Below, one piece after another: positions 2 to 64,000 of a stretch of DNA of 64,000 bases. A program made the translations under genes and the position numbers. The stretch covers positions 16,563 to 80,562 of the IMG/VR virus record IMGVR_UViG_3300029288_004207; one strand, 5' to 3'. The stretch comes from a virus (Duplodnaviria; Caudoviricetes). The notes beneath the pieces are model-generated. The model was not told where the DNA came from and made no database searches. It saw only the letters and a program-made list of their open reading frames with translations. Numbering within the stretch: the stretch's first letter is position 1; each line of letters begins with the position of its first letter.

Positions 2-181
2 CCGTTCTTGAATAAATTGGATAGTAAGGATATAAATGATGGCAAAGATATCGTTGAGTTGTTAAAAGAATCAGATGAAAATAACGTAATGGGTTCGGTA
101 CTAGGTTTGTTATTTCTAGTTGTAGGGACTCATTTGTCGCCGTTTATAAATGAGTCAATAAAAGAAGTAGCAAAGAAATGA
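2..181 (+). CDS. 3' part of a CDS entering from outside the window, with a hydrophobic segment
   Basis: Open frame from position 2 to TGA 179-181, overlapping the ATG at 178 (ATGA coupling). Confidence 0.55.
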   Translation, partial: PFLNKLDSKDINDGKDIVELLKESDENNVMGSVLGLLFLVVGTHLSPFINESIKEVAKK

Positions 182-783
182 AAATATTAGGTTATCATAT
201 TCAAGATAATATAATCATCAATTCAGATGGTGAATATCGTAATAAAAGTCCCTATATTAGTTTCTTGATGGATAAAAAGCCTGATACAATAAGGATTTTT
301 GGTAATCTTTATCAGTCTGTGTTAGATTTATCAAGATTATTGAATTGGGGGGATAATCTTTTAAAAGAATTGCTGGCAACCTCAAAGATAAAATTTACCC
401 CATATAAAATAGCATATAAACAAGACAGTTTTTTAAGTATCAAGAGGTCTAATTATTTAAGTAAAATGAAATCAAAACTAACTTATTATGGAGATTTATC
501 AAAATATATTATCTTAGATGCTGATACGCCATTGAAAAATGCTATATATGTCAAAGATTGCGGTCAACAGGTATATGATATGTTAGTAGAACTTGGCATG
601 AATCCTATAAATTTAGTTAATCCATTTAAGCAGTATGTTAAAAATAAAATTTTAATAGAAGATTATCATTCGTTGGAATGGCATTTAGAAAAAATGGAAC
701 AAGAATATAATAAAGCATCTGATGTAAAGAAGTTGGTTATAAATCAGATAATGGAAGGTTTGAAAGGTGAAACATCAAAGTAA
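178..783 (+). CDS. stand-alone paralog of the N-terminal (degenerate exonuclease) region of the PolB at 58235-59866
   Basis: Collinear similarity by eye: IIINSDGE/ITITNSNGN, IRIFGNLYQSVLDLSRLL/LKFFWNLDESLAPIFKLM, IAYKQDSFLSIK/LYYRRGKNMIIK, VYDMLVELGMNPINLVNPFKQY/LLKALENIGITTPMTLNSAIGIY. Confidence 0.6.
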   Translation: MKILGYHIQDNIIINSDGEYRNKSPYISFLMDKKPDTIRIFGNLYQSVLDLSRLLNWGDNLLKELLATSKIKFTPYKIAYKQDSFLSIKRSNYLSKMKSKLTYYGDLSKYIILDADTPLKNAIYVKDCGQQVYDMLVELGMNPINLVNPFKQYVKNKILIEDYHSLEWHLEKMEQEYNKASDVKKLVINQIMEGLKGETSK

Positions 784-58234: not shown

Positions 58235-59866
58235 TTATACTTTGATAGGTTCACTATCATATACTTTATTGCTTAGTAATGATTTACCACTGTTAGGGAA
58301 TGCCTTGAAAATTCTATCTTGAGACATTTTTATTTCAACTAAATCAATGGTATTATGATGTTCTGTTATTTCTCCTACCATATTTATATCATGTAGTATT
58401 TCAACTGCTTCAAATAATGTTATTCGTTTATCCATTGATATTTTATAATGATTAGTTTTAGGATTAGATTTAATAGCATCCATTGCCATATCATAAGTTA
58501 TGGAATGAGGTTTTTTGTCCTTATAAATAATCCAACCTGGGGATAATACTAAAGCAGGACAAGGTTCATTCTCACGCCAAGTCCCCAAAGATTTATCTTT
58601 ACTAATAAGTGTTTTTGTCGCTTGTTTCGTACTCATTACTCCATCTGTTGATATTGCTATGACGCTATCAGCTAGTTCATTCTGCATGATAAAATCAAAT
58701 ACTTGTAATCTTGCTTGTGCATAAATCCATCCTGCTATCATAGGGTTATAAGTAGCAGATGTTTTGTCTTTCTCAAATTGTGCATTGGTTTTTCCAACAT
58801 AACCTACAATTATTCCTTTACATAAGTCATTTTCTATTTCACCTAACTGGCGCATATCAAATAACCGTTTAACAATATTTTCCATTGGCTTTTTGTAGTT
58901 ATTAAATTTCACATACCATCCACCAACAATTTTAAAAGTTCCCACTTTATATTTATAGATTGAAAGTAATTCTTCTAATGTTAAATAGGTGTTGAATGTT
59001 CCTATTGGGTAAATTACATCGCCATTAGCATTAACATAAGCAAACGGATGAATCTTAACATCTTTGTTAATAGTTAGTTCTACTTCAAAAAACCCAGTGA
59101 TATTGCCAGCTATTATATCTTTAACATGTTTAGAGGAATAGTCTTTTGAATAAGGTATATATTCAGCGTTAGCAAAGTCTCTTACTTCTGATAACCATTT
59201 ACCATAGGATGATGAGACATCGTATGAGTAACTTTCTTGGAAGTGTCCTACATTTGTCGCCGTTATCCATCCTTGTCTATTAGCACAGTGTTTAGCATAG
59301 ACTAATATATTAACTGCTTCTGGTGGCACACACTTAATACTAGGAGTAAGTTGGATATTCCTCATAGAACTTTCGTAAATACCAATAGCAGAATTTAAAG
59401 TCATGGGAGTAGTTATACCTATGTTCTCTAAAGCCTTGAGTAGTTTATTACAACGTTCTAATAGTTCTTGTGCGTTATGAGGTTCAGGTTCATTGGGTAA
59501 AAGAGGTTCTAGACCATAAATACAACACATATATGGATGTTCAGATGTTTTACTTTTTAAAATATGATTTCCTTTGATAATCATATTCTTACCACGCCGA
59601 TAATAAAGATGAGTAGCCTTATCAAAAGTGGTATTTAGTAGTGCTTTACATTCATCGGGTGGCATAAGTTTAAATATAGGTGCTAGGCTTTCATCTAAAT
59701 TCCAAAAGAACTTTAATTCTCTGGACATTCCATCACGGTATGGTGTATAGAGGAAATCCCATAGTTCATTACTATCCTTGGATGTAATAGAATTCCCATT
59801 TGAATTTGTTATTGTAATGCCATTATCATCTACAGATGTATAATATGCGACTAGATGCTTTATCAC
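58235..59866 (-). CDS. polB: divergent family B DNA polymerase of the protein-primed / pipolin-like type
   Basis: Motif A YDVSSSYG, TPR1-like YPIGTFNTYLTLEEL, motif B KGIIVGYVGK, motif C ISTDG, LGTW; N-terminal exonuclease motifs degenerate. Confidence 0.78.
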   Translation of the reverse strand: MIKHLVAYYTSVDDNGITITNSNGNSITSKDSNELWDFLYTPYRDGMSRELKFFWNLDESLAPIFKLMPPDECKALLNTTFDKATHLYYRRGKNMIIKGNHILKSKTSEHPYMCCIYGLEPLLPNEPEPHNAQELLERCNKLLKALENIGITTPMTLNSAIGIYESSMRNIQLTPSIKCVPPEAVNILVYAKHCANRQGWITATNVGHFQESYSYDVSSSYGKWLSEVRDFANAEYIPYSKDYSSKHVKDIIAGNITGFFEVELTINKDVKIHPFAYVNANGDVIYPIGTFNTYLTLEELLSIYKYKVGTFKIVGGWYVKFNNYKKPMENIVKRLFDMRQLGEIENDLCKGIIVGYVGKTNAQFEKDKTSATYNPMIAGWIYAQARLQVFDFIMQNELADSVIAISTDGVMSTKQATKTLISKDKSLGTWRENEPCPALVLSPGWIIYKDKKPHSITYDMAMDAIKSNPKTNHYKISMDKRITLFEAVEILHDINMVGEITEHHNTIDLVEIKMSQDRIFKAFPNSGKSLLSNKVYDSEPIKV

Positions 59867-60438
59867 TTACTTTTCCCTTTTATTCTTAATTGTTTAATTC
59901 TATTTTGGTGTAGTTTAATGCGTCTTTGCCATTCAGTTTTTTCTTCAGGTGTTTTAGCAAATGCTAAACGATTTTTACTATGATTAATATCATCTTGGCT
60001 TTGTCTGATAGTTTGGTCTATAACATTTTTCCCAGTTATTTTACGTCTATTTGCTTTTGTCTTTTTACGTGGTGTTTTTACTACTTTACCAGAAGTATCT
60101 CTGATAGCGTATTTGTCTTTATATTTGTTAAAGAAGTTGAATGTTAGCGTTCTTGCTCTATCACGCCGTTCTTTGCTACCAGTAAGTATTAAATCATTTT
60201 CATTACTCGCTAATCCTTTTCTTACATACAATTGCCTAATAGATTTATAGTATTTATTTAATATGTACCGTTCCTTTTCATGTTTTTGATAGAAATCTCT
60301 AAATCTACGCATACGAGTTTCAATCATAACTTTTAAGTAACGATGGTCTTTAATAGATTCCATTGATATATCTTGATAAGCACTTGCCTCTGCTGGCAAA
60401 AAACCTCTATTGATAAAGTACCTATAACCAACGCTCAT
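59863..60438 (-). CDS. basic helical protein upstream of polB, terminal-protein candidate
   Basis: K/R-rich; overlap-coupled to polB; the function is inferred from gene order only. Confidence 0.4.
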   Translation of the reverse strand: MSVGYRYFINRGFLPAEASAYQDISMESIKDHRYLKVMIETRMRRFRDFYQKHEKERYILNKYYKSIRQLYVRKGLASNENDLILTGSKERRDRARTLTFNFFNKYKDKYAIRDTSGKVVKTPRKKTKANRRKITGKNVIDQTIRQSQDDINHSKNRLAFAKTPEEKTEWQRRIKLHQNRIKQLRIKGKSK

Positions 60439-60439
60439 T

Positions 60440-61000
60440 TTACTCTCCCTTATTGAAATCCTTAAATACTGTTGGCATTTTGTTTATGAGAAAAGAATAT
60501 AATTTAGTAAAAGATTGAGCCTCGTCTTTTATATATTTTTCTATTGTAGCATAATCCTTTTGTTGATACCATTCTGCTATACTTGCTCCTGTATCCTGTT
60601 TACCAGCTAAATTGTGGAGAGAGCATCCTTTGAACTCTCCGCCATTACAGAGTAATGCTACTGGATATAAATCTATATAAGGATGATTATATAGGTTTAT
60701 AGCGTTTGTTTTCATGCCATATTTATTCCAGTGTGTACCTAACATTACGAAGTCAAAATCAGCTAACTTATAACCGATAGGGATGAAAGCCCACCTATTA
60801 TTGATATTAAAGGTGTTGTAGAACTGTTTAAGGATATCTTCTTCACTACTCTCCCATGATTTTAGAATAGTTAATGGGGTAAGTATTTCACCAGTTTTAG
60901 AACTTATTTGTTGATAACTTATTGTTATAATTGGGTCTTTATTGAAATCAATCGGCTTAGTAGGGCTGTATGTCTCTAGGTCTAAATAGAACTCTGGCAT
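60440..61000 (-). CDS. stand-alone DEDD 3'-5' exonuclease (PolB-exo / RNase_H_2-like)
   Basis: YLDLET (ExoI), SEEDIL, GYKLADFDF (ExoII), YIDL, YIKDE (ExoIII). Confidence 0.82.
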   Translation of the reverse strand: MPEFYLDLETYSPTKPIDFNKDPIITISYQQISSKTGEILTPLTILKSWESSEEDILKQFYNTFNINNRWAFIPIGYKLADFDFVMLGTHWNKYGMKTNAINLYNHPYIDLYPVALLCNGGEFKGCSLHNLAGKQDTGASIAEWYQQKDYATIEKYIKDEAQSFTKLYSFLINKMPTVFKDFNKGE

Positions 61001-61147
61001 TTATTGCTCCTTTGGATTATCTAAAATTGGGTTTACGGTGCTTTTACGGCAAGTTTTACAAAAATATCTTTGTTTAAAAATATGATTACTACCAGCCCCT
61101 TGTCCAAACTTCACCAATTTATTGTTGTTGCATTTAGGACATTTCAT
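61001..61147 (-). CDS. InsA-like Zn-ribbon protein (48 aa)
   Basis: MKCPKCNNNKLVKFG..KQRYFCKTC; promoter TTGACA-17-TATACT at 61199-61171; not in the ORF track. Confidence 0.78.
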   Translation of the reverse strand: MKCPKCNNNKLVKFGQGAGSNHIFKQRYFCKTCRKSTVNPILDNPKEQ

Positions 61148-61219
61148 GTATTGACAACCTCGCTATGTATAGTATATACTATAGGTTGGTAAATGTCAAT
61201 AGTAGTAAAGATATGTTTG

Positions 61220-61327: not shown

Positions 61328-61576
61328 ATGCTAAGTCTAAAGACTATTAAAAAATATGAACCTGAAATGAAGCGACTAAAAGTTAGTGAAGTAGCAAGGT
61401 CGCCACGAGGGTTCATCCCCGCATATAAACGTGCTAAAGGAAATCCTAAAAAACTAAGTGAAAACTGGAAAATAAAGCGTAATGCTTTTATTGCCAGAAC
61501 ATTACCACAATATAAGAAAAATCCAACAAAACGTAGGTTACTTTCTTTGAGGGCTTGGGCTTATGAACCTAAATAG
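61328..61576 (+). CDS. small basic protein
   Basis: SEVARSPRGF..WKIKRNAFIAR..PTKRRLLSLRAWAYEP. Confidence 0.7.
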   Translation: MLSLKTIKKYEPEMKRLKVSEVARSPRGFIPAYKRAKGNPKKLSENWKIKRNAFIARTLPQYKKNPTKRRLLSLRAWAYEPK

Positions 61577-61742: not shown

Positions 61743-62457
61743 TTATTTATTTGGAAACCAATTCCAAATAGGTTCTTTTTTAGATATTTCAGGTAAATAA
61801 ATGCCATCTGTTTTTTCAGGTCTAACATATTTTACAAGAAAATCTACCACACCTTTACGTTCTATTCTCCAAACGCAACCCTCGGCTTTATCAACTGCCC
61901 CGTGATAACCATGCTCACCAAGTATATCAATAGCATATTGTATTGAAATAGTATTGCCCCGATGTAATAGTTTTGGTACTGTAAAACCACCTTGCTTTAC
62001 ACGATTGAGTAAAGCGTCATATTGTAATCTGGTATGGTCTTTCATTAAGTCAAATATAACAAGAGGTTCATGGGGTAATTTATAGATAGTACCGTGTGCT
62101 TGCATAAGCCATTCGCCACAAACACGCTCACCCTCTTGTAAAACATAACGAAAATCTTGTTTCATTTTCTTCTACCCATTTTCCCCAATGCCAATGTTGC
62201 TCATAAGGTGATGTAGAAGCAAGATAACCAGCACGAGTTATGGCTATAATTTTACCTTTAAATAATGCTACACCTACATTACTACCGTCCAGTTTTTCTG
62301 TAACAATTATCTCATCGTGGCGGTCACGTTTTCTTTCTGTAGCAATTCTTGATTGTCCTTCGTGACAGTGTTTATCACTAGGAGTAATTCTACTACCCTC
62401 TAAGTGCGGTATTGTTCCATAATTTTTAATTCCTAAAGGTTTTCTATCTTCAGTCAT
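61743..62457 (-). pseudogene. RNA ligase (Rnl2-like nucleotidyltransferase) split by a +1 frameshift at 62151-62154
   Basis: EKLDGSN in 62457-62128; CGEW and FDL in 62165-61743; one extra T in AGA TTTT CGT joins the frames. Confidence 0.8.
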
Positions 62458-62732: not shown

Positions 62733-63638
62733 TTAGCGGTTTAATCTTAATTGTAAGTATTCAAGAACATCTTTAATTCCTAAGTCATTCATGCAATAAT
62801 CATATAATTTAGGGTGTAATCCTTTAAGAATATCAAATCTATTATTTTTTTCTTTATGTATCCCAAATAGGCAAAATATACATCCTGTATGGTCTACCCC
62901 TTTATCATATATATTACAATAAGGTATATTGTTTTGTTTAATGTAATCCCAATTATCTTTTTCAGTCCAAAAACCTAATGGAGTAGAAGATTCTCCACCT
63001 TCCAAGAATGAATTACATCCATGTTGTAAATATATACGTTCCCTTACCAATGAATCAACCGCCATAGTTCCGATAAAAGGAGATAACCCCGTTTCCTTCC
63101 TAAAAATTTTAAATGGTTTCTTTTTTAACATGTCACAACATTGTTCTGAAGTCTTAAATGGAGCATCTACGAGGAACTTCCATCTTTCACTGATTTTGAA
63201 TCTTCCATTTTTACCATTCCACCTAACATTTTTAAGATACTCGCTATGAGTTGTACGATATTGGCGAATATATAAAGCCTGTTCCTTTGATATAACTGGA
63301 TAACCATATTTATCTAGAACTTGTTTAAATGAAAGTTTGGGACGTATTATAGTGATGTTATCACTTGTACGAACAAATTTTTTTATTTCTGGATACTCTA
63401 ATCCAGTGTCAGAAAAAACAGCAGGAATATTAGGATAAATACTTCTTACTAAATGTTTCAATACAGTAGAGTTTAATCCACCACTAAAACTAATATAAAC
63501 ATTACCATTCATTCTACGATAGAATTGACGTATTTTCATTTTACTAATAAACACCTTTTCTAAAAGAGGTAATGATTGTTTATCTATTAAACATTTCTTA
63601 GTAACCATATTGTTAGTATTTATTAAATTAGATGACAT
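62733..63638 (-). CDS. PAPS-reductase-family (PP-loop) protein
   Basis: YISFSGGLNS, DTGLEYPE, CCDMLKKKP, TGCIFC. Confidence 0.88.
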   Translation of the reverse strand: MSSNLINTNNMVTKKCLIDKQSLPLLEKVFISKMKIRQFYRRMNGNVYISFSGGLNSTVLKHLVRSIYPNIPAVFSDTGLEYPEIKKFVRTSDNITIIRPKLSFKQVLDKYGYPVISKEQALYIRQYRTTHSEYLKNVRWNGKNGRFKISERWKFLVDAPFKTSEQCCDMLKKKPFKIFRKETGLSPFIGTMAVDSLVRERIYLQHGCNSFLEGGESSTPLGFWTEKDNWDYIKQNNIPYCNIYDKGVDHTGCIFCLFGIHKEKNNRFDILKGLHPKLYDYCMNDLGIKDVLEYLQLRLNR

Positions 63639-63640
63639 AT

Positions 63641-63883
63641 CTATTTATTACCTGTTTTAGACGCATTAGAATCAATAACAGATGGCTTTATAGAGGTAAA
63701 GCGACCACTTCTATCTCTTGGTTGTGGAATTAAAGGGTGAATAGTTATTCTACCACAAGAGTTACAGATATATTGTTGATGCTTTGTTTTCTTAGTGTTG
63801 TCAAAATTATCCCTTGCCCATTTTAACCCGAATTTTGCCAAAGAAGGCAATTTACATTTAGGACATCTAAGATTATTAGTCAT
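63641..63883 (-). CDS. InsA-like Zn-ribbon protein
   Basis: CPKC..KFG..QQYICNSC; promoter TTGACT-17-TATTAT at 63934-63906. Confidence 0.75.
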   Translation of the reverse strand: MTNNLRCPKCKLPSLAKFGLKWARDNFDNTKKTKHQQYICNSCGRITIHPLIPQPRDRSGRFTSIKPSVIDSNASKTGNK

Positions 63884-64000
63884 ACAACCCCCTATCTACC
63901 TAACAATAATAGCATACAATGGTGCAAAAGTCAAGTGATGATGAATGTAGAAAAATACTGGAATAAAAAGTGTGGAATAGAAGGTGTTGTCATGCCCCCC

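What the first reader, a model, noticed from the sequence alone, without database searches (positions are those of the whole stretch)
58235..61199. Split replicase operon: exonuclease-dead, motif-divergent PolB plus separate proofreading exonuclease and terminal-protein candidate
Seen: one promoter drives Zn ribbon, DEDD exonuclease, a basic 191-aa protein and PolB, all translationally coupled. The PolB lacks Exo carboxylates, has V for the motif-B Asn (KGIIVGYVGK), STDG for DTDS and no clear KxY. Established: pPolBs have YxDTDS and KxY with an adjacent terminal-protein gene; pipolin piPolBs have a TTD-type motif C, lack KxY and prime de novo. Inference: a distinct PolB clade with trans-acting proofreading, either protein-primed or primer-independent.
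Basis: partly seen in the sequence, partly recalled or inferred. Interest (0 to 1): 0.75.

Follow-up and report, generated by a model that had tools for sequence, protein, structure and literature searches.

The report
Exonuclease-dead protein-primed-type polymerase with borrowed proofreader
A large virus-like element, probably of Chloroflexota bacteria, encodes a phi29/ABV-type DNA polymerase whose own proofreading domain has lost its catalytic residues, in one tight operon with an intact exonuclease captured from the host and a small, very basic protein in the usual terminal-protein position; together they look like a modular replicase not described for this polymerase class.

Summary
One near-consensus promoter heads four abutting genes on the minus strand: a 48-aa Zn ribbon, a 186-aa exonuclease, a 191-aa basic protein and a 543-aa polymerase.

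- **Polymerase.** It is a family B polymerase. The AlphaFold2 model (pLDDT 96) matches phi29 DNA polymerase over its whole length (Z 20.8; other PolBs about 11). The closest sequence family is the protein-primed polymerase of Acidianus bottle-shaped virus (ABV). The polymerase catalytic residues are invariant, and relatives carry inteins inside motifs A and B. No acidic residue of the N-terminal exonuclease-like domain is conserved, so that domain looks dead.
- **Family.** It has at least 586 clusters, no Pfam or NCBIfam model, and was not found in 401 sampled host-class genomes.
- **Exonuclease.** It keeps an intact DEDDy set. It is not a split-off piece of the polymerase: its clade nests inside chromosomal genes of Dehalococcoidia/Chloroflexota, so it was captured from the host.
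- **191-aa protein.** It travels with the polymerase in relatives but matches no known fold or terminal protein, so that role stays an inference.
- **piPolB.** Membership is not supported.

The contig is incomplete, so terminal repeats could not be tested. I rate this a new variant of a known kind, of moderately high interest.

The parts
61171..61199 (-). Sigma-70-type promoter of the operon (TTGACA, 17 nt, TATACT)
   Evidence: Best-scoring site in 57.9-64 kb, 11 of 12 matches. It overlaps a mirror-image site on the + strand at 61151-61180.
61001..61147 (-). 48-aa four-Cys Zn-ribbon protein, probably a DNA-binding regulator
   Evidence: NCBIfam NF050000 IS1/IS1595 N-terminal zinc-binding domain, 31.2 bits against a cut-off of 28. 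It is a paralogue of the 80-aa Zn ribbon at 63883-63641 (E 3e-9). Its stop codon abuts the exonuclease ATG.
60440..61000 (-). 186-aa stand-alone DEDDy 3'-5' exonuclease of host origin
   Evidence: In 20 homologues D7, D110, Y156 and E160 are invariant, E9 nearly so, and ExoII reads FD or FE. Homologues hit PF13482 (6 of 20, best 6.4e-9), PF10108 (5 of 20) and PF03104 (2 of 20). The viral clade nests in Chloroflexota sequences.
59863..60438 (-). 191-aa very basic all-alpha protein: terminal-protein or accessory-factor candidate
   Evidence: pI 10.5, 50 Lys+Arg. The AF2 model (pLDDT 81) shows an N-terminal helical domain, a disordered basic loop at 111-136 and a C-terminal helical hairpin. It lies directly upstream of the polymerase in L002, L004, L005 and L006. 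No fold or sequence match was found.
58235..59866 (-). 543-aa divergent protein-primed-type family B DNA polymerase with an inactive exonuclease-like N-terminal domain
   Evidence: AF2 pLDDT 96. phi29 DNA polymerase matches at Z 20.8 over 451 residues. The ABV protein-primed polymerase profile matches at probability 97.7, E 2e-12, and phrog_11768 at E 7.8e-16. D216, G358 and D408 are 76/76 and K350 is 75/76. No conserved acidic residue occurs in residues 1-200.
178..783 (+). 201-aa stand-alone paralogue of the polymerase's N-terminal (dead exonuclease-like) domain
   Evidence: It matches positions 1-151 of the polymerase-family HMM at E 6e-17, and was found again by the whole-record search.

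Best explanation
The four genes form the replication operon of a large, probably linear, non-integrating virus-like element of Chloroflexota (Dehalococcoidia-like) bacteria.

Shown:
- The 543-aa protein has the phi29/ABV-type family B polymerase fold. Its polymerase active site is intact: motif A Asp216 with the steric-gate Tyr221, motif B Lys350, motif C Asp408.
- Its N-terminal exonuclease-like domain keeps no conserved carboxylates.
- The 186-aa protein is an intact DEDDy exonuclease whose lineage was captured once from host chromosomal genes.
- Exonuclease, basic protein and polymerase are co-inherited and translationally coupled.

Inferred:
- The exonuclease works as a trans-acting proofreading subunit of the polymerase, much as epsilon serves Pol III alpha.
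- The basic 191-aa protein, encoded where phi29, PRD1 and Bam35 encode their terminal proteins, primes replication at the genome ends or otherwise tethers the polymerase to DNA.
- The dead exonuclease domain is kept as a structural scaffold.
For: Fold: pLDDT 96; Foldseek top hits are phi29 DNA polymerase, E 9e-14; Z 20.8, 451 aligned residues, model 1-508 against phi29 4-575; the next PolBs score about Z 11.

Family link: and (59 of 76 members hit phrog_11768 and no other PHROG; phrog_11768 is the ABV protein-primed polymerase family; hhalign probability: ABV 97.7, Bam35 95.9, phi29 80, PRD1 74; 7 of 76 members hit PF03175).

Active site and function: invariant D216, D408 and G358; K350 in 75 of 76; inteins inserted after motif A residue 218 and at K350; Hint and LAGLIDADG domains in the 727-938-aa members.

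Dead exonuclease domain: no invariant acidic residue; the ExoI columns are A/G and Y/F; ABV FDIET aligns with YYTSV.

Exonuclease intact and host-derived: viral clade 100/99 support, nested in a 100/98 Chloroflexota clade; cellular homologues sit in ordinary chromosomal contexts.

Coupling and synteny.

Non-integrating: (0 of 401 host-class genomes), with the positive control.

Gene position: in phi29, PRD1 and Bam35 the terminal-protein gene lies directly upstream of the polymerase gene, 0.2-4.3 kb from a genome end. In ABV an unannotated ORF163 holds that position, with the polymerase 2.5-4.5 kb from the record start. Here the operon lies 2.8-5.8 kb from the contig end. No PrimPol, Toprim or DnaB is present on the 80.5 kb held.
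Against: - There is no biochemical evidence for any activity or for a physical polymerase-exonuclease contact.
- The exonuclease association is seen only in the narrow clade (polymerase identity of about 45% or more).
- The 191-aa protein has no detectable similarity to any terminal protein or known fold.
- The contig has no terminal repeats and is rated about 51% complete, so linearity, inverted terminal repeats and the absence of a primase are all untested.
- The TPR2 region is about 26 residues shorter than in phi29, which argues against phi29-style intrinsic processivity.
- The exonuclease-dead call rests on alignments that are low-confidence in the N-terminal 130 residues.
Confidence: 0.6

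Rival explanations
1. The polymerase replicates without proofreading, and the captured exonuclease has another job, such as recombination or end processing, repair, degradation of host DNA, or countering a host defence. On this reading its place in the operon reflects only early timing.
For: Cellular homologues sit beside HerA-type ATPases, restriction-modification genes, GmrSD and a reverse transcriptase, not beside polymerases. None of 28 loci carrying the exonuclease has the polymerase family within 10 kb. Most of the polymerase family appears to manage without this exonuclease: the exonuclease search returned only 38 proteins, against 586 polymerase clusters. Eukaryotic mavirus and polinton-like-virus protein-primed polymerases lost the exonuclease domain outright (PMC11161782).
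Against: Translational coupling in the order exonuclease, basic protein, polymerase is kept in every relative where the DNA could be read. The full DEDDy catalytic set is retained in the viral clade. The capture happened once and was then co-inherited with the polymerase.
Confidence: 0.25
2. The 191-aa protein is not a terminal protein but a DNA-binding accessory factor: a processivity factor, a genome-end or origin binder like phi29 p6, or a single-strand binder. Priming would then be done de novo by the polymerase (as in piPolBs) or by a primase encoded on the missing half of the genome.
For: The protein is extremely basic (pI 10.5) with a disordered Lys/Arg loop and a coiled-coil hairpin. 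It has a weak hit to a PHROG DNA-binding protein family (E 0.013). It shows no similarity to the phi29, PRD1 or Bam35 terminal proteins. The vestigial TPR2 suggests a need for an extra processivity factor. The polymerase shares with piPolBs the loss of the first motif-C Asp and of KxY (PMC5695915). The record is only about 51% complete.
Against: The gene sits in the position that terminal-protein genes hold in phi29, PRD1 and Bam35. A conserved loop, R-D-x-[ST]-G-[KR], and invariant Tyr106, Tyr110 and Thr122 offer hydroxyl candidates for priming. The piPolB hallmark KH-X8-KTRG is absent. No primase was found on the 80.5 kb held.
Confidence: 0.35
3. The 543-aa protein is an inactivated polymerase homologue with a structural or regulatory role, like PolB2, the Pol epsilon C-terminal module or poxvirus F12.
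For: It has unusual residues at motif B (Val354 for Asn, Val357 for Tyr) and motif C (Ser406 for Asp), and it lacks KxY.
Against: The two metal-binding Asp residues, the motif-B Lys and Gly, and the steric-gate Tyr/Phe are invariant or nearly so across 76 diverse members. Inteins sit in motifs A and B. ABV and the biochemically active piPolBs also lack the first motif-C Asp (PMC5695915).
Confidence: 0.04

Closest known systems
[quoted passage not shown]
   Same: It is the closest sequence family (hhalign probability 97.7, E 2e-12; the only PHROG hit). Both lack the first motif-C Asp (YLTDS against ISTDG), have a very short TPR2 region, and have Gly at the KxY Lys position.
   Different: ABV keeps ExoI (FDIET), and the profile alignment does not settle its other Exo motifs; this family has no conserved Exo carboxylates. 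ABV is a 23.8-kb archaeal virus, whereas this is an element of at least 80.5 kb with bacterial promoters and a bacterial host signal. The family is about as far from ABV as phi29 and PRD1 are.
phi29 DNA polymerase (Salasmaviridae; PDB 2PYJ, 2EX3, 1XHX)
   Same: It is the best structural match over the whole chain (Z 20.8, 451 residues). The spacing from motif A to motif B is identical at 134 residues, consistent with a TPR1-type insertion. A small gene lies directly upstream of the polymerase, where phi29 has its terminal-protein gene.
   Different: Sequence identity is 13%. The exonuclease site is dead. The TPR2 hairpin is about 26 residues shorter. KxY is absent. Asn387 and Tyr390 are replaced in this clade. 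The genome is at least four times larger.
Primer-independent PolB (piPolB) of pipolins (PMC5695915)
   Same: The first Asp of motif C is substituted and the canonical KxY is missing. Both are divergent relatives of protein-primed polymerases.
   Different: piPolBs keep active exonuclease motifs and both TPR1 and TPR2, carry KH-X8-KTRG, and reside in integrated elements. Here the exonuclease motifs are lost, TPR2 is vestigial, there is no KTRG, and the gene was not found in 401 sampled host-class genomes.
Bacterial Pol III alpha with its epsilon (DnaQ) subunit
   Same: Functional analogy only: a polymerase without its own working proofreading site, paired with a separate DEDD exonuclease subunit.
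   Different: The polymerase fold is unrelated (family C). The physical pairing is proven there and only inferred here.
Mavirus and polinton-like-virus protein-primed polymerases that lost the exonuclease domain (PMC11161782)
   Same: They are protein-primed-type polymerases without cis proofreading.
   Different: In those the domain is deleted and a helicase is gained. Here the domain is kept but degenerate, and a stand-alone exonuclease is gained.

Membership tests
Family B DNA polymerase | PolB fold: exonuclease-like N-terminal domain plus palm, fingers and thumb | tested here: met
   AF2 pLDDT 96. phi29 matches at Z 20.8 and KOD, RB69, Pol II and Pol delta at Z 10-11.
Family B DNA polymerase | Catalytic Asp of motif A (DxxSLYPS), Lys of motif B (KxxxNSxYG), second Asp of motif C (DTDS) | tested here: met
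   D216 76/76, K350 75/76, G358 76/76, D408 76/76, Y/F221 75/76.
Family B DNA polymerase | First Asp of motif C (YxDTDS) | tested here: not met
   Position 406 is S/G/A/T/N across the family. ABV and piPolBs (PMC5695915) show the same loss.
Protein-primed PolB (PF03175 DNA_pol_B_2) | Match to the curated Pfam model | tested here: inconclusive
   The window protein has no hit, even at E up to 1. 7 of 76 relatives hit PF03175, best E 2.4e-8.
Protein-primed PolB | TPR1 insertion between motifs A and B | tested here: inconclusive
   The D216-K350 spacing of 134 residues equals phi29 D249-K383, and 451 of about 570 phi29 residues align. No residue-level superposition was available.
Protein-primed PolB | TPR2 hairpin between motifs B and C | tested here: not met
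   The stretch from G358 to N374 is about 16 residues, against about 43 in phi29. The profile alignment shows two 10-residue gaps. ABV is equally short.
Protein-primed PolB | Active ExoI, ExoII and ExoIII carboxylates | tested here: not met
   No invariant acidic residue occurs in residues 1-200 of 76 members. The ExoI columns are A/G and Y/F. D58 is kept in 63/76 and E/D134 in 45/76.
Protein-primed PolB | Linear genome with inverted terminal repeats and a covalently bound terminal protein | not testable with these tools
   The contig has no ITR or DTR and is rated about 51% complete.
piPolB (pipolins) | KH-X8-KTRG in place of KxY, intact Exo motifs, residence in an integrated pipolin | tested here: not met
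   The region reads PGWIIYKDKKPH, with family consensus SSGxV...DK[KRH]P. The Exo motifs are lost. The polymerase was found in 0 of 401 host-class genomes.
PolB_SITDG cluster (Kazlauskas et al. 2020, PMC7544198) | Motif C SITDG with a hydrophobic residue replacing the first Asp; found in cyanobacteria and algae; linked to the main PolB group | not tested
   No member sequence was at hand. Here the replaced position is small or polar, and the nearest relatives are protein-primed polymerases.
DEDDy 3'-5' exonuclease (DnaQ-like / PolB-exo-like; PF10108, PF13482) | ExoI DxE, ExoII Asp, ExoIII Yx3[DE] | tested here: met
   D7 is invariant, E9 is kept in at least 90%, ExoII reads FD or FE, and Y156 and E160 are invariant.
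DEDDy 3'-5' exonuclease (PF10108, PF13482) | Score above the curated Pfam cut-off | tested here: inconclusive
   The window protein scores 16.2 bits against a cut-off of 24 for PF10108. Of 20 relatives, 6 hit PF13482, 5 hit PF10108 and 2 hit PF03104.
Terminal protein | Gene directly upstream of the protein-primed polymerase and co-inherited with it | tested here: met
   Seen in the window and in L002, L004, L005 and L006. phi29, PRD1 and Bam35 have the same layout.
Terminal protein | Sequence or fold similarity to a known terminal protein; covalent dNMP linkage | tested here: inconclusive
   hhalign probability is below 1% against the phi29, PRD1 and Bam35 terminal proteins and ABV ORF163. No fold match was found. 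Terminal proteins are notoriously unconserved, and covalent linkage cannot be tested here.

The most novel reading that the evidence does not exclude
A lineage of protein-primed polymerases that had lost proofreading regained it by recruiting a host DEDDy exonuclease as a separate subunit. This would have let a protein-primed (or primer-independent) replicon grow well beyond the roughly 50-kb size usually quoted for such polymerases. It would be a DNA-virus parallel to Pol III alpha-epsilon and to the ExoN acquisition of large nidoviruses. The 191-aa protein would be a new terminal-protein family.
Probability: 0.3. Interest if true: 0.8.

Novelty: new variant of a known kind. Interest (0 to 1): 0.62.

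Why it matters
- **Genome size.** Protein-primed PolBs are described as replicases of small linear genomes, under 50 kb (PMC5695915, PMC7544198), with built-in proofreading. Here a large, unannotated branch of at least 586 clusters has a degenerate exonuclease site. One sub-branch, on elements with contigs of 40-80 kb, carries a host-derived exonuclease in the same coupled operon.
- **What it would give if the proteins work together.** It would be a natural example of modular, trans-acting proofreading in family B polymerases. It would also be a tractable system for asking how fidelity modules are swapped as genomes grow.
- **Practical value.** It could supply new strand-synthesis enzymes, or naturally error-prone ones, for orthogonal replication tools.
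- **Host link.** The exonuclease tree independently ties this tailless virus-like element to Dehalococcoidia/Chloroflexota hosts.

Tried and rejected
- **Sequence-only searches of the polymerase.** Pfam and NCBIfam gave no polymerase match and PDB sequences gave nothing, whether queried as a single sequence or as a profile.
- **tblastn against deposited phage genomes.** Three family members gave no match.
- **Pattern scans with polymerase alignments.** IMG/VR gave no relatives with A1, A5, A6 or A7. GTDB genomes gave none with A1. A2 was too diverse to seed a scan. The metagenome scan gave only five short loci.
The 40-65-kb contigs of close relatives, and every context for the wider family, therefore stayed out of reach.
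- **Contig ends.** I found no terminal direct or inverted repeats and no internal copy of the right end.
- **Fission hypothesis.** I looked for similarity between the exonuclease and the polymerase's N-terminal domain or the exonuclease domains of protein-primed polymerases. None was significant, and the hypothesis is rejected together with the tree.
- **191-aa protein.** The ESM Atlas, Foldseek against PDB and BFVD, VIA wide search and hhalign against four terminal-protein or upstream proteins gave only generic helical hairpins.
No such paper was found in the library.
- **Zot-like ATPase as a probe for complete relatives in IMG/VR.** Nothing was found.
- **Global hhalign mode.** It gave a meaningless alignment.
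- **PolB_SITDG sequences.** They could not be retrieved from the paper's supplements.
Full report
**1. What is in the sequence**

On the minus strand of window 58235-61199 lie four abutting ORFs:
- a 48-aa four-Cys protein (61147-61001);
- a 186-aa protein (61000-60440);
- a 191-aa protein (60438-59863);
- a 543-aa protein starting at a GTG (59866-58235).

The junctions read TAA-ATG, TAA-A-ATG and an overlapping GTGA, each preceded by a purine-rich ribosome-binding site. The best sigma-70-like site in 57.9-64 kb is TTGACA-17-TATACT at 61199-61171, directly upstream of the first gene.

**2. Setting**

The window is the last 64 kb of a single 80,562-bp IMG/VR record. That record is classed linear and rated about 51% complete by CheckV.
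- Window 1-58.1 kb runs on the + strand and carries membrane, surface and glycosylation genes. Earlier notes of this scan read these as the particle module of a tailless virus-like element.
- The last 5.8 kb runs on the opposite strand. It holds two early-looking operons: a Zn ribbon, a PAPS-reductase-like gene and a frameshifted RNA ligase, followed by the operon studied here.
- The contig has no terminal direct or inverted repeats and no circular overlap.

**3. The 543-aa protein is a family B polymerase of the protein-primed type**

Sequence-only tools see almost nothing: no Pfam, NCBIfam or PDB sequence hit. The single sequence match is PHROG 11768, 'DNA polymerase', at E 7.8e-16.

An exhaustive HMMER search found 586 representative clusters at E up to 1e-3, mostly 500-550 aa. 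With 76 of them as the alignment, AlphaFold2 gave a model with pLDDT 96 and pTM 0.92.
- Foldseek ranks nine phi29 DNA polymerase chains first (E 1e-11 to 9e-14), far ahead of other PolBs at about 1e-5.
- VIA-align gives Z 20.8 with 451 aligned residues, model 1-508 against phi29 4-575. KOD, RB69, Pol II, Pol delta and herpes and pox polymerases score about Z 11.

PHROG 11768 turned out to be the family of the Acidianus bottle-shaped virus (ABV) protein-primed polymerase: ABV ORF653 hits it at E 5.6e-299. Profile comparison gives these probabilities:

| Reference polymerase | hhalign probability | E-value |
|---|---|---|
| ABV | 97.7 | 2e-12 |
| Bam35 | 95.9 | 6.1e-09 |
| phi29 | 80 | 1.4e-05 |
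| PRD1 | 74 | 2.8e-05 |

In addition, 59 of 76 family members hit PHROG 11768 and no other PHROG, and 7 of 76 reach Pfam DNA_pol_B_2. The family is about as distant from ABV as phi29 and PRD1 are. It is therefore a separate deep branch of the protein-primed assemblage.

**4. Active site**

Profile alignments to phi29 and ABV, together with phi29 numbering checked on the record, place the motifs as follows.
- Motif A: D216 aligns with phi29 D249, and Y221 with the steric-gate Y254.
- Motif B: K350 to G358 aligns with K383 to G391.
- Motif C: D408 aligns with D458.

Across 76 diverse members D216, G358 and D408 are invariant, K350 is kept in 75 of 76, and position 221 is Tyr or Phe.

- The motif-B Asn column is V 26, N 22, T 12, A 11, so valine is a clade trait rather than a family trait.
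- The first motif-C Asp is replaced by a small residue throughout the family. It is also replaced in ABV (YLTDS) and in the biochemically active piPolBs (PMC5695915).
- The KxY position reads G-W-I here and G-Q-Y in ABV.
- A family-specific D-K-[KRH]-P motif follows the KxY-equivalent position (K451 is Lys or Arg in 71 of 76; P453 is kept in 70 of 76).

The six longest family members (727-938 aa) are not fusions with other enzymes. They carry Hint and LAGLIDADG inteins inserted right after motif A (query residue 218) or at motif B K350. Those are the classic locations in essential polymerases. An inactivated pseudo-polymerase is therefore very unlikely.

**5. The cis exonuclease domain looks dead**

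- The N-terminal 200 residues align structurally with the phi29 exonuclease domain.
- The 76-member alignment has no invariant or near-invariant acidic residue in that stretch.
- The ExoI strand reads hydrophobic-A-Y-x. The aligned ABV segment FDIET corresponds to YYTSV.
- Only partial remnants survive: D58 in 63 of 76, at an ExoII-like W-[DN]-L-D, and E/D134 in 45 of 76.
- The sequence alignments are low-confidence in this region, and I had no access to model coordinates. The call rests mainly on the lack of any conserved carboxylate set.
- The same record also encodes a stand-alone 201-aa paralogue of this domain (window 178-783; E 6e-17). This suggests the domain has a non-catalytic function of its own.

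**6. TPR subdomains**

The spacing from motif A to motif B (134 residues) is identical to phi29, and most of the phi29 chain aligns, which fits a TPR1-type insertion. The TPR2 hairpin is nearly absent: about 16 residues against about 43 in phi29. ABV is the same. phi29-style intrinsic processivity and strand displacement cannot be assumed.

**7. The 186-aa exonuclease is intact and was captured from the host**

- Twenty homologues conserve D7 and E9 (ExoI), the ExoII FD or FE, D110, and Y156-x3-E160 (ExoIII).
- Relatives hit PF13482, PF10108 ('exonuclease related to the exonuclease domain of PolB') and PF03104.
- A pattern scan of GTDB genomes found 27 loci in Dehalococcoidia/Chloroflexota and in many archaea, some on complete chromosomes.
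- None of these loci has the polymerase family within 10 kb.
- Their neighbours are HerA-type ATPases, restriction-modification genes, GmrSD, a reverse transcriptase or housekeeping genes.
- In a maximum-likelihood tree the 18 virus-associated sequences form one clade (support 100/99). That clade nests several nodes deep inside a Chloroflexota clade (100/98), with the archaeal sequences mostly on the other side.
- Profile comparison shows no significant similarity between this exonuclease and the polymerase's N-terminal domain, or the exonuclease domains of ABV, phi29, PRD1 or Bam35.

So the operon is not a split polymerase. It is a polymerase with a dead cis domain plus an exonuclease acquired once from a Chloroflexota host.

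**8. The 191-aa protein**

- It has few homologues (seven in the database search), and where the DNA could be read the homologous gene lies directly upstream of the polymerase gene (L002, L004, L005, L006). L006 belongs to a more distant polymerase lineage, 52% identical.
- It has pI 10.5, with 50 Lys+Arg in 191 residues.
- Its model (pLDDT 81) shows a helical N-terminal domain, a disordered but strongly conserved loop (Y-K-D-K-Y-A-I-R-D-x-[ST]-G-K ... T-P-R-K) and a C-terminal helical hairpin.
- No fold or profile search gave a meaningful match, including comparisons with the phi29, PRD1 and Bam35 terminal proteins and ABV ORF163.
- Its position copies that of the terminal-protein genes of phi29, PRD1 and Bam35.

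A terminal-protein role is therefore a reasonable inference, at roughly 40%. It is not a finding.

**9. Distribution and lifestyle**

- The polymerase family was not found in five exonuclease-bearing MAGs, nor in 401 genomes sampled from the same class. The same search finds it in the window's own record.
- It is absent from 50,697 deposited phage genomes by tblastn with three members, and from IMG/VR by four pattern scans.
- Close relatives sit on contigs of 40-67 kb.
- This fits non-integrating, seldom-binned extrachromosomal elements.
- No PrimPol, Toprim or DnaB domain occurs on the 80.5 kb held, though half the genome may be missing.
- The right contig end lies only about 66 bp beyond the promoter of the first early operon (63934-63906). 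On the minus strand it begins with a run of six G. That is compatible with a true genome terminus, but also with an assembly or sequencing artefact.

**10. Mechanism proposed**

Shown:
- the fold;
- the intact polymerase site;
- the degenerate cis exonuclease site;
- the intact trans exonuclease of host origin;
- tight coupling and co-inheritance of the three genes.

Inferred:
- the exonuclease docks on the polymerase and proofreads in trans, by analogy with Pol III alpha-epsilon;
- the basic protein primes or anchors replication at the genome ends;
- the dead domain is kept as a scaffold.

Rivals are a non-proofreading role for the exonuclease, an accessory DNA-binding role for the 191-aa protein with de novo or primase-dependent priming, and, least likely, an inactive polymerase.

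**11. Comparison with what is known, and novelty**

- Protein-primed PolBs without cis proofreading are known in mavirus and polinton-like viruses. There the domain was deleted and a helicase gained (PMC11161782).
- piPolBs share the motif-C and KxY changes but keep their exonuclease site, TPR2 and a KTRG motif (PMC5695915).
- A PolB_SITDG cluster from cyanobacteria and algae has a similar-sounding motif C but links to the main PolB group (PMC7544198). I could not test it.
- I found no description of a prokaryotic protein-primed-type PolB family with a retained but degenerate exonuclease domain, nor of one paired with a host-derived stand-alone exonuclease.
- I classify the finding as a new variant of a known kind.
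This prevented a family-wide survey of gene context.

Noticed in passing
window 178-783 (+): A 201-aa stand-alone paralogue of the polymerase's N-terminal (dead exonuclease-like) domain, matching HMM positions 1-151 at E 6e-17. It suggests that this domain has a function independent of the polymerase.
   Followed up: partly
window 61743-62457 (-): An RNA ligase (PF09414, phrog_38169) is split into two ORFs that overlap by 38 nt (62457-62128 and 62165-61743). This could be a frameshift, a sequencing error or programmed frameshifting.
   Followed up: no
window 63641-63883 (-) and 61001-61147 (-): Two paralogous IS1/IS1595-type Zn-ribbon proteins (E 3e-9) each head one of the two early operons. 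A Cys-rich protein also sits upstream of the exonuclease gene in the related locus L005. They may be operon-specific regulators.
   Followed up: partly
window 61151-61199: Two near-consensus promoters (each TTGACA ... TATACT, 11 of 12 matches) overlap face to face on opposite strands between the replication operon and a divergent 82-aa basic-protein gene (61328-61576).
   Followed up: no
window 63886-64000 (contig right end): The first early promoter lies about 66 bp from the contig end, and the end reads as a run of six G on the minus strand. This may be a true genome terminus with a reiterated end, as in protein-primed genomes, or an artefact.
   Followed up: partly
G000:C1:1-120 (outside the window): The left contig end starts inside a 60-bp tandem repeat, which is probably an assembly break.
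   Followed up: no
P0026, P0062, P0161 (after motif A); P0155 and probably P0101 (motif B): Relatives of the polymerase carry Hint and LAGLIDADG inteins inserted exactly in catalytic motifs A and B.
   Followed up: partly
L007:1795-3990, L008:3677-5872, L018:4737-6467, L021:953-2761: In Dehalococcoidia genomes the cellular homologue of the exonuclease is often followed by a HerA-type (DUF87, HAS-barrel) ATPase. This may be a two-gene nuclease-ATPase module of unknown role. The exonuclease itself is not in PADLOC.
   Followed up: partly
window 62733-63638 (-): A PAPS-reductase-like protein (PF01507, phrog_424) in the neighbouring early operon may be a DNA-modification enzyme.
   Followed up: no
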